DNA of 64,000 nucleotides from Pecten maximus (Eukaryota). Made by a program: the position numbers. Below, in pieces: positions 15,001 through 21,000 of this stretch. Location of the stretch: the NCBI RefSeq assembly GCF_902652985.1, contig NC_047015.1, positions 38,440,001 to 38,504,000 on the forward strand. Reading direction: 5' to 3'. Position 1 is the first letter of the stretch, and each line of letters starts with the position of its first letter.

Positions 15001-18000
15001 TATATTGTAAGTAAAAATATTAACTAACCAGTTCTATGTTGCTGAATTCATTACAGGAGAAACTAAAATAGCTGTGCTGTCCAAATTGGCTGGTGAAATG
15101 TGGCATAAACTACCAGACAATGAAAGACAGGTAAATCGGCAGTTTGACATAAGGACTTCCTTAATTTAGATAACAGCTCTGATGTATTACTGTTGTACAG
15201 TATATATAAAAGTAATCCCTGTGGTATGCTTTGTCACTCTAATCAAACGTAACAATGTCTCATTCAGTGCTAAAAATCTATATTTATTGTTAGATGTTAT
15301 TGAATTGTTTGCTATGAAATTAAATAAGTAGGAAGTTTTCTGTTTTGTAGAAATATTTAAAATCAAGCCAAGATGCAATGGCCATTTACTCTGAGAAGTT
15401 AAAGAACTACACCGCAGGATTGAGCTCTGAACAGCTGGAGGAAATTGCACTAAATGCATGGAGAATGCGTGAAGAAAAGAAGATTAAAAAGGCATACCAG
15501 GTGTTAATTTGATTTTATATACCGTAGATTTGTTTTCTAGCTGTATGTACATATATATGCATGATACATAATTAAACTGTGATTGGCTGTTTCCCTGTTA
15601 GAAATATTTGGTGCCATTTTCAGATTTGAAAATTCATGCCACATTTTTGTCCAGGTCCACATACATGAATCTAATGTTAATACCTTAATTTACAGGCGGC
15701 TTTGTCAAAACATCCTATGCCAAAAAGACCCAAACCTGCTATGTGGGTTTTTGGTGAGACCATTGATAGTAAAAACTGCACATTAAAGGTAAGAATTTCA
15801 TACAGTATGCAAAATTAGTGATTTACATTTCTGTTTGAGTGACTTAGTTAGAAGAAATGGTCTGGACCCTTATACTATGTATATCAGGTTATTAAGAATT
15901 GTTTCATTTGGATGGTTAGTAAATGTGAAAAAACATAGATTATACTTGTATTCATATGTGTGTTGTGATGCTCTTTTAACTGATATTGTAGATATTGAAT
16001 TTCCTTAACATTTCATGTTACAGCAATCTGAATATTTTGTGAGACTGCTTCAGGCTGGTTAGCTTTCAAATGATACCTTTTGAAGACCTGAGTGTCCAGA
16101 TTTTTGGGACAAAGCATCTAGTACATTGAATACTAGTTATTATTATAATATCCTGTTCAAAAGATATATTTTTTTTACAAGAGGCCCATGGATCTAATCG
16201 GTCACCTGAGTTCTGAACTATTCTGATAGATGATGTTTAGCGCTTTTGCACTATTTAACACATCTCACCCCTGCGAACATGAAAGGGGAAGGTTTATTCA
16301 CTTGAACATACTTTGAAGCCAATTTGTTCTAGCATGCTTGGTTATTGGGAAGTTGTTTTAAGATTTGAACACATTTGATCCCTGTGACCTTGAAAGTTGG
16401 TTTAAGCAATTCATTTGTCCAAACTGGTAGGCCTTCATCCCAGCATGCTACTGGCTCAATATCATGTCAAATCTTTGAAACTCCATAACCATATATATGG
16501 CATTGCTTGACATCAAGAGATAAACACAATTCTGATGTAAAAATAGGCCCAGGGGTATTTCCCCACCCCAAGGGACTTAGTTTCTTTAAACACTATCATT
16601 TTGAGTCTGGACTTCACCACATATAGCATTGTAAGACATCAGCAAAAAAAAACTATTAACAGGTTGAATATGAACATTGTCTTGATGCTTGCTTAAATCA
16701 ACCAGGTGAGTGATATAGCCCCTCTTGGCCTCTTCTAAGTTTGTCATAATCATAGACATAACATTATTGTACCTCTTAATAGGCCTAGAATTTGATAGTT
16801 TTGACTGCTGAGCTGTTGTTTCTTTAAACATTCTTTGGTTGATTTTATATAGGAGCTGAATCAGAAAGTGAAATCAGGATGGCAGGGGTTGTCTTATGCA
16901 GAGAAAGAGGTAAGCATATTGTTTATTCTGAATGTAATAAACATGTAGAAATGATTTAATATTTAAATCAATAAGTTTGATAAAAGTTTAATATTTTAAT
17001 CCATTAGTTTGATATGCTTATTTTGGAATATTTCTCCAAACCAGCCCTGTTGTTCAACTTTGTTGAAGGTACTTCTAGTCAGTGTGATGTTGAAGGTACT
17101 TCTAGTCAGTGTAAATTTCACTTGAAACCATGGCCAGCTCTGTTGGAACAAGTTCTGTACCCTGGTATCCATATTGTTGAAGGCACTTTTGTTTCAAATT
17201 TCAGACTTCACTTACTCACATCTTAAAGTATCAGAAAATAAAATAATGTATAGGGTTACATTTGAAACAACTAGGTCAAAGGTCATTGAAATAAATTTTC
17301 CTTTATTATGTTAACAAAGTTGTTTTCGGTGACCCAGCATGTTTATGCAATGCAATGTATTTTGTTTAGCGTAATATGAATCATTTCAAGACTTCATTTA
17401 GTGCATCACAAAATTTGACATGTTGTGAAAAAATTCTCAAGGACTGCAAGGCTGGTGTCATAATAATCGCCATGCATATTGCTTAACTTATATAAAAGTA
17501 TTGTCAAGACCCTTACATTAGTTATCAATAGTCTGTGACACCTTAAAACTGATGTGACAACCATGTTTATTGTCGACTTAATGAATGAACTAAAGTCTTT
17601 GAGGTGTGAGCAAAAATTTTTATGGTCAATATTTAAGTTAATAAGAGTGCTTGAGAATATATGGCTGATTGTATAGTACTGTTTGAATTACCAGGTAGTC
17701 ACTCCCTGTTGATTGACCCTGTTTACAAATGTGATGTTTCCTGATTCAGTAGATATTTTGCTGGAATAGTGTGGATGAAATTGCTCAGTTATAAAGGGAA
17801 AAAAAATATCTATGGGAAGTATGCATGTTCAGAAATTTGTTAAGTCCTATTGTGGAGGATTGGTAAATCAGAAATTGTAATTTAGAGTAATAAGTATAAG
17901 TTTTTGCTATTATTGATTACAGTCGATAATACATTGGTTGATAACAAGTAATTAGTAAATTGGATATTAAAACCCATATTCATTTCTCATGTATTGATGA

Positions 18001-21000
18001 GGCCAGAGAAAAGAGTGATTTGTTGATCATTGAGATAAATTTATTTTAATGATTAACTGATATACTGTACCATGAATGTGCAAAGAAGAGGATAGGAATG
18101 AAAAGTGAGCAACATGCCATTAAATGCAGATTTTTAGCCCACCATCATCAGATGGTGGGCTATTCAAATTGTCTTGCGTCCATGGTCTGTCCGTCCGTCC
18201 GCCCCTCCGTCTCAATTCTTGTTATCGCTATTTCCCAGAAAGTACTGAAGGGATCTTTCTCAAATTTCATATGAAGGTTCCCCTTGGTCCCTAGTTGTGC
18301 ATATTGCATTTTGGGACCAATCGGAAAACAACATGGCCGACAGGTGGTCATCTTCGGAAAACAACATGGCCGACAGGTGGCCATCTTGGATTTTGACAAT
18401 TTTGGAAGGGTCTTGAGGTGCTTACTAAAGTGGGAATTTTTTGGGGACTCAGGTTTTCTCCAGGGACTGATAGGGACTAATAGGCGGGACCAAAAGCGGA
18501 CAAATCTACTGAAATATTTCAGTGACCATTAAGGCCTCTTGTTGATTTTAAAGACATATGTTGCTGGCTATGAAGAAAAGATGGAGCGATGGAAGACAGA
18601 CTTTGGACTATGGGTACAAGACATGGTACTAGATGGTTCCTCTGACTTCATTACTATGCATGAGCTGAAGCAGGTTTGTATTCAACCCATAAGAACACTT
18701 TCCCTGTAGAATTGTATTCTTCTGGCATAAACATGTTAGAGATGTAGAGATTCACTGATCTATTGTAAATAATCATCACTAGTATTGATGCATTGTTTGA
18801 TGGTCTTCGGTAACCTGATAAGAATCTATTGAATGTATTGATTCTGATATTGCACATTTTTGACATTGTCATGCAGGAAAACTTCCAGGTTGAAATATTG
18901 TAATAACAACGACAACAGTTATACAGTTTGTATTTAACTTACATTTAATTCACTCACAATGGCTGATTGGCCATGTATCGTGATACTATTATGTACTGTA
19001 ATTTAATTCACTCACAATTGCTGATTGGCCATGTATCGTGATACTATTATGTACTGTAATTTAATTCACTCACAATTGCTGATTGGCCATGTATCGTGAT
19101 ACTATTATGTACTGTAATTTAATTCACTCACAATTGCTGATTGGCCATGTATCGTGATACTATTATGTACTGTAATTTAATTCACTCACAATTGCTGATT
19201 GGCCATGTATCGTGATACTATTATGTACTGTAATTTAATTCACTCACAATTGCTGATTGGCCATGTATTGTGATACTATTATGTACTGTATTGCCCTACC
19301 CCTTAAAATTTGCTGATATCACAATGTATGATTACCGTTTTAAGCGTTATACCTCTAGGATGTCAGACAGCAAAGGTGGCCTATTTTTTAGGATAAATGT
19401 AGCGTAACATTATGCAATCAACTATGAGTATCTTTCCATGAAAAAAACCGTAGTCAACTATAATCCGATTTTGTTGCATTTAAATGTTTGTATGTAATGT
19501 AACAAGGTTTTCTCTTTGGTAAATCATTGAAATTACAACTTTATTTCTTTCATAAGGAGCTGCGAAGACTTGGCATGCCAAAACGTCCAATAACTGCCTT
19601 CATGTTATATACAAGAGCATGTCGGATGGAGCAAGGCAACATGTCTATAACAGTAAGTTATGTGTATCATTAAGTTTTTGACAGGATTTCTTGTTTTCAT
19701 ATTATTTAAGGTTTAAAGAGTCAAAGCAAAAAAGGTATTGCAATTTTTTTGGCATCTCAGAACCTATCCAAAATTTTCCATACTATTGATAAAATGCAAC
19801 AGAAAAGTTTGGAAAAAAAGTTTTTAGTTCTCAGTAAAGTTTAGGAGAACCTATTCTATCCCCAGGCACACTGTCTGGTTAAGGAGAATGATAAAAATCA
19901 GCAAAACCTGTCTTTGTTGATTAGGGTTATGTGACAGGAGAGATGATAATACTTTCTTAACTAGGTCTTGTTGATAGTATGGTATTCCTATACTTGCATT
20001 AATTTTCAATCCAATTGTTTATTGCACAATTCTATCTTTACATAAGTAATGGATGTTTTTTCTGGTCCATAATTAGGGTTACGATCACGATTAAAGTAAA
20101 GTTCAAATCACAATTAACCTATCCATAGTTTGATATTAATTATAGGTGGCAAACCATTAAGATTCACCAAGTGCTTGTATGGAAATACCCACAGCCCTAA
20201 GTCCCCCCCCCCCCCTGCCAAAAAAAAAAAACAACAACAACCCTAAAACTTTTGTCAGATTTGCTGATTAATACCCCACTGCTCCCAATGTACACTGAAT
20301 CCCATTCTCTCCAAAATGCTTGTTAAGAACAAGAGGCCTAGAGGACCTGCATTACTCACCTAGATATTTTAGTGATCATGGCAAAATACTCTCATATAAA
20401 TTATATTACAAAAAGAAGATTTCTTACATTTTTTAGCTCAATTTCCCCTATACTAGATCTCCTTGGCTCAATAATGCTCCAGACTAAATCATTTTTTCTA
20501 TTGGGGCCCTCTGGCCCGAGGACCTCGCCCTCCATTTATACAACTTTTTGTCTACTCTGTCCAATAAAGCTCCAGACCAGATTTCATCAAAATCCATTCA
20601 ATTTTTGAGGTTTATTTTAGATTTTTTAAGGAAATGTTATCGTACCGTGGACAAACAGAAGGGCAGACAACTGACACTGCACCATGGCATAAACTCACCA
20701 ATCCCTCAGACCATGTCATCTTAGAAAAAAATCCTTGGTTACAATCAGTCTTAACACTTTTGTTTCTTTCAGGAGTTTTCCAAGGAGATGGGATCTCGCT
20801 GGAAGCAGTTGAGCGATGAAGAAAAGCAGGTAAATTTCAATATAATCTGCCATATTTCTATTGAATGGATCTGTATCATGGCAGTTTTGTCTTGCTACAT
20901 TGAAATACAGGAAAGAAGAATAAGGTATCACATTTACAAAAAATTTGCATCAACATCAGTAAATTTGCAGTGATAGGAGTCGTAGACTGGTTACCAGACA

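What the first reader, a model, noticed from the sequence alone, without database searches (positions are those of the whole stretch)
15500..19557. The extra HMG box is a phase-0 cassette, allowing up to three TFAM isoforms
Seen: every junction from exon 4 onward is phase 0. Splicing exon 4 to exon 8 gives KKAYQ|ELRRLGMPKRP, a canonical-looking two-box TFAM (A+B2). Ignoring the donor at 18674 reads VCIQPIRTLSL-stop (18709), giving A+B1 with a short tail. Full inclusion gives A+B1+B2. Splice sites at the module edges are weak: AAG acceptors for exons 7 and 8, and donors gtgtta and gtttgt. Inference: box number could be switched by tissue or sex, e.g. germ line versus soma. That would matter if the species has unusual mtDNA inheritance or size, as some bivalves do.
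Basis: inference. Interest (0 to 1): 0.65.

Follow-up and report, generated by a model that had tools for sequence, protein, structure and literature searches.

The report
In-frame third HMG box in TFAM
An invertebrate gene for the protein that packages mitochondrial DNA carries an extra, old, in-frame three-exon copy of its second DNA-binding box; it could be skipped without breaking the reading frame, but nothing in the sequence shows that it is.

Summary
Exon ends, phases, junction peptides, the read-through stop (18707-18709), the two AAG acceptors and both donor strings are as described.

The gene is a ten-exon TFAM-like gene at 11622-21598 (+). Exon 8 (96 nt) matches human TFAM from E148, the first residue of the 96-nt human exon 5, which is itself alternatively spliced. 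Exons 5-7 are an old, diverged copy of the box-B exons 8-10. With the register fixed by exon borders, 2, 3 and 71 of 20000 shuffles reach the observed scores. Pfam and PDB do not recognise them exon by exon.

Phase 0 is inherited and is needed for any in-frame exon-block duplication, so it is not evidence of regulated splicing. Weak sites are not confined to the module: donors 1 and 8 are as weak or weaker. Intron 4 is only 195 nt, and introns 4 and 7 show no special pairing. Intron 7 has no AATAAA or ATTAAA, so the read-through form is probably unproductive.

The likeliest main product is a three-box protein of 407 aa. The two-box skip form (317 aa) is possible but untested. No transcript data or eukaryotic databases were available.

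The parts
11622..11686 (+). Exon 1, coding part: ATG plus 21 codons and 2 bases, presequence-like. Donor is AAG|gtatca, phase 2.
   Evidence: The 21 residues hold 2 K+R and 0 D+E. No Pfam hit. No targeting predictor was available.
12770..12903 (+). Exon 2: leader plus helix 1 of HMG box A.
   Evidence: Pfam HMG_box E 0.0013, profile positions 1-24, below the gathering score. 9 of 16 PDB hits are TFAM box A.
15057..15130 (+). Exon 3: helix 2 of box A.
   Evidence: Pfam HMG_box E 0.0029, profile positions 27-48. The 2 PDB hits are HMGB3 and Abf2.
15351..15500 (+). Exon 4: helix 3 of box A plus 26 residues of linker. Ends KKAYQ; donor CAG|gtgtta.
   Evidence: No Pfam or PDB hit on its own. In-register match to the box B2 helix 3 exon: 48 of 20000 shuffles reach the score.
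15696..15788 (+). Exon 5 (93 nt, phase 0-0): 7 linker residues, then MPKRP and helix 1 of the extra box B1.
   Evidence: Match to exon 8 from MPKRP: 2 of 20000 shuffles reach the score. No Pfam hit; PDB gave chance hits only.
16853..16909 (+). Exon 6 (57 nt, phase 0-0): helix 2 of B1. Same length as exon 9, with Trp at the same codon.
   Evidence: 7 of 19 residues and 32 of 57 bases are identical to exon 9. 3 of 20000 shuffles reach the score. No Pfam or PDB hit.
18554..18673 (+). Exon 7 (120 nt, phase 0-0): helix 3 of B1 plus a 16-residue acidic second linker. AAG acceptor; donor CAG|gtttgt.
   Evidence: In-register match to the start of exon 10: 71 of 20000 shuffles reach the score. No Pfam hit; PDB gave chance hits only.
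18674..18709 (+). Read-through of donor 7: 11 codons (VCIQPIRTLSL), then TAG at 18707-18709.
   Evidence: No AATAAA or ATTAAA anywhere in intron 7, 18674-19556.
19557..19652 (+). Exon 8 (96 nt, phase 0-0): end of linker (ELRRLG) plus helix 1 of box B2. Counterpart of human TFAM exon 5. AAG acceptor; donor ACA|gtaagt.
   Evidence: The top 9 of 13 PDB hits are TFAM, with residue 1 aligned to residue 148 of the 246-residue chain. Human exon 5 is 96 bases, E148-Q179. Pfam HMG_box E 0.062.
20773..20829 (+). Exon 9 (57 nt): helix 2 of box B2.
   Evidence: Pfam HMG_box_2 E 3.7e-4 and HMG_box E 0.0033. In PDB, residues 4-19 align to TFAM 183-198, so residue 1 corresponds to 180.
21221..21598 (+). Exon 10: helix 3 of B2, then a 101-residue Lys/Glu-rich tail built on a 27-nt repeat. 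Stop TAA at 21596-21598.
   Evidence: Tandem repeat 21386-21565, period 27, 6.7 copies. Tail net charge +15. No meaningful Pfam or PDB hit.

Best explanation
Exons 5-7 are an old, strongly diverged, in-frame duplicate of the three exons that encode TFAM's second HMG box (exons 8-10). They sit between the linker exon and the exon that corresponds to human TFAM exon 5. The run of phase-0 junctions is inherited from the ancestral TFAM gene. It is what allowed the block to be duplicated without breaking the frame, so it is a by-product and not a sign of regulated splicing.

The default mRNA most likely joins all ten exons. The product would be a 407-residue protein: presequence, box A, a 33-residue linker, box B1 (net charge about 0), a roughly 22-residue acidic second linker, box B2, and a 101-residue Lys/Glu tail. 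B1 would act either as a weak third DNA-bending module or as a spacer that changes the geometry of the TFAM U-turn.

Shown here: the exon structure, the frames, the homology of B1 to B2, and the TFAM identity of exons 2, 8 and 9.
Inferred: constitutive inclusion and any DNA-binding role of B1.

Skipping the block to give a canonical two-box form is frame-compatible and may occur as a minor form.
For: - Structure and frames.
- TFAM identity: exon 8 aligns from its first residue to TFAM residue 148, and the top 9 of 13 PDB hits are TFAM. Exon 9 residues 4-19 align to TFAM 183-198. Human exon 5 is 96 bases, E148-Q179, the same length and borders as exon 8. For exon 2, 9 of 16 PDB hits are TFAM box A. 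Exon 1 has no acidic residue.
- B1 is a copy of B2: with the register fixed by exon borders, 2, 3 and 71 of 20000 shuffles reach the observed scores for the three exon pairs. Exons 6 and 9 are both 57 nt and share 32 of 57 bases against about 29% expected. The MPKRP-coding pattern occurs 4 times in the window, twice in this gene, at the homologous places.
- The copy is old: blastn with word size 7 finds no DNA match between the modules.
- B1 is kept as coding sequence: 90 codons are open and all six splice sites are GT-AG. At the introns' stop frequency of 0.065 per codon, 90 open codons have P about 0.0024.
- Inclusion is favoured: intron 4 is 195 nt with a CAG acceptor, against 4056 nt to an AAG acceptor for the skip. 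Pairing between intron 4 and intron 7 is reached or bettered by 52 of 200 shuffles. No inverted repeat of 30 nt or more lies in 11000-22500.
Against: - No transcript evidence of any kind was available, so constitutive inclusion is an inference.
- Pfam (E up to 10) and PDB searches recognise none of exons 5, 6 and 7 as HMG. B1 is called a box only from internal homology, 15 of 67 identical residues to B2.
- Donor 4 (6 of 9 consensus matches, U1 duplex -6.7 kcal/mol) and exon 7's AAG acceptor are poor sites. The orthologous human exon is alternatively spliced. Regulated skipping here is therefore quite possible.
- The presequence was judged from composition only.
- The joined protein was never searched or folded.
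Confidence: 0.6

Rival explanations
1. One reading: exons 5-7 form a regulated cassette that is skipped as a block in some tissues or in one sex, switching TFAM between two and three boxes.
For: - The skip preserves the frame. It places ...KKAYQ next to ELRRLGMPKRP, which gives a 32-residue linker (26+6). That is within the 27-39 residues quoted for TFAM (passages of PMC10295803).
- Human TFAM skips the orthologous 96-nt exon, and mammalian testis isoforms exist.
- Donor 4 and donor 7 are non-consensus, and exons 7 and 8 have AAG acceptors.
Against: - Frame symmetry applies equally to every one of exons 4-9.
- Donors 1 (-5.7) and 8 (-5.6) are weaker than donors 4 (-6.7) and 7 (-9.4) by U1 pairing.
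- Exon 5's acceptor is a CAG only 195 nt from donor 4.
- Skipping three exons together needs coordinated repression. No pairing between introns 4 and 7 that could loop the block out was found.
- The human precedent skips one exon, not a box-sized block.
Confidence: 0.25
2. Exons 5-7 are decayed pseudo-exons of an old duplication and are never spliced in. The real mRNA is then a seven-exon, two-box TFAM.
For: Pfam and PDB do not recognise exons 5-7. B1 has the lowest net charge of the three boxes. Poor sites flank and enter the module.
Against: All 90 codons are open despite loss of any DNA-level similarity. The six GT-AG sites sit at positions homologous to those of box B2. The signature residues are kept in register: MPKRP, Trp at codon 10 of the 57-nt exon, and the aromatic residues of helix 3.
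Confidence: 0.1
3. The gene is not TFAM but a nuclear multi-HMG-box protein of the HMGB or UBF kind.
For: No exon-level HMG hit reaches Pfam's gathering score. Exon 9's best PDB hits are an SRY/HMGB1 chimera and SOX-11, and exon 2's best hit is TOX. The 101-residue charged tail is far longer than the 12-27 residues quoted for TFAM.
Against: Exon 8 matches TFAM through the pre-box EL..LG.PKRP stretch, and both its borders coincide with those of human exon 5. The N-terminus is short and free of acidic residues. The A-to-B linker length fits TFAM.
Confidence: 0.05

Closest known systems
Human TFAM and its exon-5-skipped isoform
   Same: The layout is presequence, box A, a linker of about 30 residues, box B, then a tail. 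Exon 8 has the same 96-nt length and the same borders as human exon 5 (E148-Q179). In human, skipping that exon changes the number of functional boxes.
   Different: This gene has three extra exons (270 nt) that encode a third HMG-like box, so it has ten exons instead of seven. The tail is 101 residues instead of 12-27. The human event removes one exon and destroys box B. The proposed event here would remove a whole extra box and leave a canonical protein. No isoform has been observed here.
Aspergillus nidulans HmgB, with one canonical HMG box plus two 'shadow' HMG boxes (passage of PMC7463775)
   Same: It is a mitochondrial HMG protein with three HMG-like domains, some of them too diverged for standard profiles.
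   Different: It is fungal and not a TFAM orthologue, and its domain order differs. I made no sequence comparison.
Physarum Glom and Candida Gcf1 (passages of PMC7463775)
   Same: Both are mitochondrial two-box proteins with an added lysine-rich or coiled-coil region, as the long Lys/Glu tail here would be.
   Different: Their extra region is N-terminal, and they have no third box. I did not compare them by sequence.
Alternative splicing of a duplicated exon in oyster alternative oxidase (PMC5589949; search listing and start of abstract only)
   Same: A bivalve mitochondrial protein gene in which an internal exon duplication is used for alternative splicing.
   Different: It involves a single duplicated exon. 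I did not read the paper beyond the listing.

Membership tests
TFAM (mitochondrial transcription factor A) | Cleavable N-terminal mitochondrial presequence | tested here: inconclusive
   The 21 residues of exon 1 hold 2 K+R and 0 D+E. The first acidic residue is the 13th of exon 2. No targeting predictor was available.
TFAM (mitochondrial transcription factor A) | Two HMG boxes, A and B | tested here: met
   Exon-level Pfam HMG hits for exons 2 and 3 (box A) and 8 and 9 (box B2), E 0.00037-0.062. All are below the gathering score because each query is only a fragment. PDB TFAM alignments fall at the expected places. The whole boxes were not searched, because exons were not joined.
TFAM (mitochondrial transcription factor A) | Linker of 27-39 residues between the boxes (passage of PMC10295803) | tested here: met
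   26 residues of exon 4 plus 7 of exon 5 give 33 residues to B1. 26 plus 6 of exon 8 give 32 residues to B2 if exons 5-7 are skipped. The box limits are my own.
TFAM (mitochondrial transcription factor A) | Short C-terminal tail of 12-27 residues | tested here: not met
   101 residues follow helix 3 of B2, with net charge +15 and a 27-nt repeat.
TFAM (mitochondrial transcription factor A) | Gene structure shared with vertebrate TFAM (96-nt exon starting at E148) | tested here: met
   Exon 8 is 96 nt. Its residue 1 aligns to residue 148 of the 246-residue chain. Exon 9 residue 1 corresponds to residue 180. Human exon 5 is E148-Q179, 96 bases.
TFAM (mitochondrial transcription factor A) | Exactly two boxes | tested here: not met
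   A third HMG-like three-exon module (exons 5-7) lies in frame between the linker and box B2.
TFAM (mitochondrial transcription factor A) | Binds and bends mtDNA in the mitochondrial matrix | not testable with these tools
   This needs localisation and DNA-binding experiments.
HMG box (PF00505), for the extra box B1 | Match to the family profile | tested here: not met
   Exons 5, 6 and 7 gave 0 Pfam families at E up to 10 and no HMG protein in PDB. This was tested on exon fragments only.
HMG box (PF00505), for the extra box B1 | Homology to a recognised HMG box, with signature residues in register | tested here: met
   Against B2, 2, 3 and 71 of 20000 shuffles reach the observed scores. Against box A helices 2 and 3, 157 and 235 of 20000 do.
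Alternatively spliced cassette | Skipping preserves the frame | tested here: met
   Exons 5, 6 and 7 are 93, 57 and 120 nt, and all junctions are phase 0.
Alternatively spliced cassette | Both inclusion and skipping forms seen in transcripts | not testable with these tools
Alternatively spliced cassette | Splice sites weaker than those of the constitutive exons of the same gene | tested here: inconclusive
   Donors 4 and 7 match the consensus at 6 and 7 of 9 positions, and exons 7 and 8 have AAG acceptors. However, donors 1 and 8 have the weakest U1 pairing (-5.7 and -5.6), and donors 5 and 6 inside the module are strong. The U1-duplex measure is crude.

The most novel reading that the evidence does not exclude
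This animal, possibly a bivalve (the taxon was not established here), may switch its mitochondrial DNA packaging protein between a canonical two-box form and a three-box form. It would do so by skipping or including the B1 exon block in the germ line versus the soma, or in one sex. That would change how tightly or in what geometry mtDNA is compacted, and so take part in unusual mtDNA transmission.
Probability: 0.1. Interest if true: 0.75.

Novelty: new variant of a known kind. Interest (0 to 1): 0.4.

Why it matters
TFAM sets mtDNA compaction, copy number and transcription. Each HMG box bends DNA by about 90 degrees, and two boxes make the U-turn (passages of PMC7463775). A natural TFAM with a third box and a long charged tail would be a ready-made test of how box number shapes nucleoid architecture.

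Artificial one-, two- and three-box proteins have been compared only for a chloroplast protein (passages of PMC8157925). TFAM isoforms are already tied to paternal mtDNA loss in mammals (passages of PMC12730909), so a box-number switch in an animal with unusual mtDNA inheritance would be of real interest.

As it stands, only the gene architecture is shown. The switch is conjecture.

Tried and rejected
- **Pfam and PDB on exons 5, 6 and 7.** Nothing HMG-related came back. The CEACAM8 and SEC13 hits (E 0.4-5) are chance.
- **Free local alignment of exon 7 to exon 10.** It was not convincing (126 of 2000 shuffles reach the score) and chose a shifted register. I replaced it with the register-fixed test.
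- **blastn between the three box modules, introns included.** It gave no hits apart from one 19-nt chance match. The duplication therefore cannot be dated or its breakpoints found.
- **RNA pairing between introns 4 and 7 that could loop out the block.** It was not above shuffles (52 of 200). No inverted repeats of 30 nt or more were found.
- **A second HMG gene in the window.** Of the two further PKRP-coding pattern hits, 30492 lies in a dispersed repeat and 36902 in unrelated sequence.
- **Assembly artefact.** Rejected, because B1 and B2 share no DNA-level identity.
- **Protein Atlas.** Both calls were unavailable for new sequences.
- **Literature.** Searches for a three-box animal TFAM found none. 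This covers only the held open-access library.
- **Bacterial, phage, plasmid and E. coli collections.** I did not use them, because they cannot bear on a eukaryotic gene.
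Full report
**What was checked**

I read 6000-22000 of the window and rebuilt the gene model by script from window coordinates. The window has no N and a G+C content of about 0.29-0.39. I do not take it for human. The exon peptides resemble human TFAM only distantly, for example 10 of 20 identical residues in the best stretch.

The joined protein was never assembled, searched or folded. That limits sensitivity for every domain call below.

The gene lies on the + strand.

| Exon | Coordinates | Length | Notes |
|---|---|---|---|
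| 1 | 11622-11686 | 65 nt | ATG, 21 codons plus 2 bases |
| 2 | 12770-12903 | 134 nt | |
| 3 | 15057-15130 | 74 nt | |
| 4 | 15351-15500 | 150 nt | ends ...KKAYQ; donor CAG\|gtgtta |
| 5 | 15696-15788 | 93 nt | |
| 6 | 16853-16909 | 57 nt | |
| 7 | 18554-18673 | 120 nt | AAG acceptor; donor CAG\|gtttgt |
| 8 | 19557-19652 | 96 nt | AAG acceptor; begins ELRRLGMPKRP |
| 9 | 20773-20829 | 57 nt | |
| 10 | 21221-21598 | 378 nt | TAA at 21596-21598 |

- Introns 1 and 2 are phase 2 and phase 1. Introns 3 to 9 are all phase 0.
- Reading through donor 7 gives VCIQPIRTLSL and TAG at 18707-18709.
- The full coding sequence is 1224 nt, or 407 residues. Without exons 5-7 it would be 317 residues, and the read-through form would be 242 (arithmetic).

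**What the gene is**

Pfam, run on each of the ten exon peptides at E up to 10, found HMG_box or HMG_box_2 in 4 of them:

| Exon | Pfam hit | E-value | Profile positions |
|---|---|---|---|
| 2 | HMG_box | 0.0013 | 1-24 |
| 3 | HMG_box | 0.0029 | 27-48 |
| 8 | HMG_box | 0.062 | 1-16 |
| 9 | HMG_box_2 | 3.7e-4 | – |

All four are below the gathering score, as expected for fragments. Exons 1, 4, 5, 6 and 7 gave nothing, and exon 10 gave only chance-level hits.

Against PDB sequences:
- Exon 8: the top 9 of 13 hits are TFAM. The alignment starts at the exon's first residue and at residue 148 of the 246-residue chain, and it runs through the pre-box stretch into PKRP.
- Exon 9: residues 4-19 align to TFAM 183-198, among 42 mixed HMG hits of which 9 are TFAM.
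- Exon 2: 9 of 16 hits are TFAM box A. The best single hit is TOX, and one hit is plainly chance.
- Exon 3: the hits are HMGB3 and yeast Abf2.
- Exon 4: no hit.

Passages of PMC2777442 state that human TFAM has seven exons. They also state that exon 5 is 96 bases encoding E148-Q179, and that it is alternatively spliced. That paper cites Tominaga 1993 and Reyes 2002, which I did not see.

Exon 8 here is therefore the counterpart of human exon 5, with the same length and both borders conserved. Exon 1 has no acidic residue and two arginines, as a presequence would, but no predictor was available. I conclude that this is a TFAM orthologue made of the seven ancestral exons plus three extra ones.

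**What exons 5-7 are**

No external search recognises them, but internal comparison does. I fixed the register in advance: by the exon borders for two pairs, and by the shared MPKRP for the first pair. The ungapped BLOSUM62 scores against the B2 exons were then compared with shuffles:

| Exon pair | Shuffles reaching the observed score |
|---|---|
| 5 vs 8 | 2 of 20000 |
| 6 vs 9 | 3 of 20000 |
| 7 vs 10 | 71 of 20000 |

- Identity to B2 is 15 of 67 residues.
- Against box A, the scores are reached by 157 of 20000 shuffles (helix 2) and 235 of 20000 (helix 3).
- Exons 6 and 9 are both 57 nt, carry Trp at the same codon, and share 32 of 57 bases against about 29% expected.
- No DNA similarity survives between the modules, introns included. 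The duplication is therefore old, and an assembly artefact is excluded.
- The 90 codons nevertheless stay open. At the introns' stop frequency of 0.065 per codon, this has P about 0.0024. All six sites are GT-AG.

This argues that B1 is still used as coding sequence. B1 is the least basic box. By helix its net charge is +3, 0 and -2, followed by a 16-residue linker of net -2. Box A has +2, 0 and +2, and B2 has +3, -1 and 0.

**Does the phase-0 layout indicate a regulated cassette?**

Not by itself.
- The phase-0 borders of the 96-nt exon are shared with human, so they are ancestral.
- A block of exons can be duplicated in frame only if it is symmetrical.
- Every one of exons 4-9 is symmetrical, so many more than three frame-preserving forms exist on paper.

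The splice-site argument is only partly right.
- Donor 4 matches the consensus at 6 of 9 positions and has a U1 duplex energy of -6.7 kcal/mol. About 3% of the 557 decoy GT sites in the gene score as well.
- Donor 7 matches at 7 of 9 positions and scores -9.4, though this uses a shifted or looped pairing.
- Donors 1 (-5.7) and 8 (-5.6) are weaker than both.
- Donors 5 and 6, inside the module, are strong.
- AAG acceptors occur only at exons 7 and 8. Exon 8 has a good pyrimidine tract (15 of 20), and exon 5, the module's real 5' edge, has a CAG.
- Intron 4 is only 195 nt, whereas the skip would span 4056 nt.

I looked for pairing between introns 4 and 7 that could loop the block out. The best duplex is reached or bettered by 52 of 200 dinucleotide shuffles. 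No inverted repeat of 30 nt or more exists in 11000-22500.

Intron 7 has no AATAAA or ATTAAA. The A+B1 'isoform' would therefore be an intron-retention transcript with a stop upstream of two more junctions. From general knowledge of nonsense-mediated decay, it is more likely degraded than translated.

**Most likely reading and rivals**

- **Best reading (confidence about 0.6).** An old in-frame duplication of the box-B exon triplet sits in a TFAM orthologue. All ten exons are joined in the main mRNA, giving a three-box protein with a long Lys/Glu tail. Skipping occurs at most as a minor form.
- **Rival 1 (0.25).** It is supported by frame compatibility, by a linker of canonical length in the skipped form (32 residues against the 27-39 quoted in PMC10295803) and by the human and mammalian testis precedents.
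- **Rival 2 (0.1).** Exons 5-7 are unused pseudo-exons.
- **Rival 3 (0.05).** The gene is not TFAM but a nuclear multi-box protein.

If any single exon here is a good skipping candidate by its own sites and by precedent, it is exon 8. It has an AAG acceptor, the weakest donor, and an orthologue that is skipped in human.

**Comparison with what is known, and novelty**

[quoted passage not shown] Mitochondrial HMG proteins with extra HMG-like or charged domains are known in fungi and slime moulds: HmgB with two 'shadow' boxes, Gcf1 and Glom.

Five full-text searches found no animal TFAM with three boxes. These cover only the held open-access library, and supplements were not open. Public gene annotations of related species could not be consulted, so the architecture may already be annotated somewhere.

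I rate the finding as a new variant of a known kind. The TFAM criteria 'exactly two boxes' and 'short tail' are not met, while the orthology criteria are met.

**What stayed unchecked**

- No RNA data, eukaryotic protein or genome database, or targeting predictor was available.
- The Atlas and structure prediction were unavailable.
- The taxon of the window was not established.

Noticed in passing
window 446-11027, minus strand: A zinc carboxypeptidase (Peptidase_M14) gene lies head to head with the TFAM-like gene. Four exon-sized open frames hit successive parts of the Pfam profile (positions 3-43, 44-108, 107-165, 159-207; E 1e-5 to 1e-19). Its ATG is at 11027, about 595 nt from the TFAM-like ATG, so the two genes probably share a bidirectional promoter.
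   Followed up: partly
window 11162-11180: Two adjacent cAMP-response-element-like motifs, TGACGTAG and the palindrome TGACGTCA, sit in the shared intergenic region. I saw them by eye, and the motif name is recalled. They were not tested against chance.
   Followed up: no
window 18943-19290 (intron 7): A 58-nt tandem repeat with 6.0 copies at 99% identity lies between the extra box and box B2. It is young compared with the exon duplication. Its function is unknown.
   Followed up: no
window 21386-21565 (exon 10): The C-terminal tail is built on a 27-nt coding repeat of about 6.7 copies, giving nine-residue KEKEKLAKQ-like units. The tail has 101 residues and net charge +15, far longer than the 12-27 residues quoted for TFAM tails.
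   Followed up: partly
window 18160-18528 minus strand (intron 6), including 18321-18387: A 122-codon open frame on the opposite strand has no Pfam match, and a 33-nt unit is repeated twice inside it. It looks like a fragment of a mobile element.
   Followed up: partly
window about 12100-12240 (intron 1) and about 30430-30580: Two copies of a dispersed repeat look alike by eye. The second produced a spurious PKRP-coding pattern hit at 30492. They were not aligned formally.
   Followed up: no
window 29714-30331, minus strand: This is the longest open frame in the window, 205 codons and Ser/Thr/Asp-rich. It has no Pfam match.
   Followed up: partly
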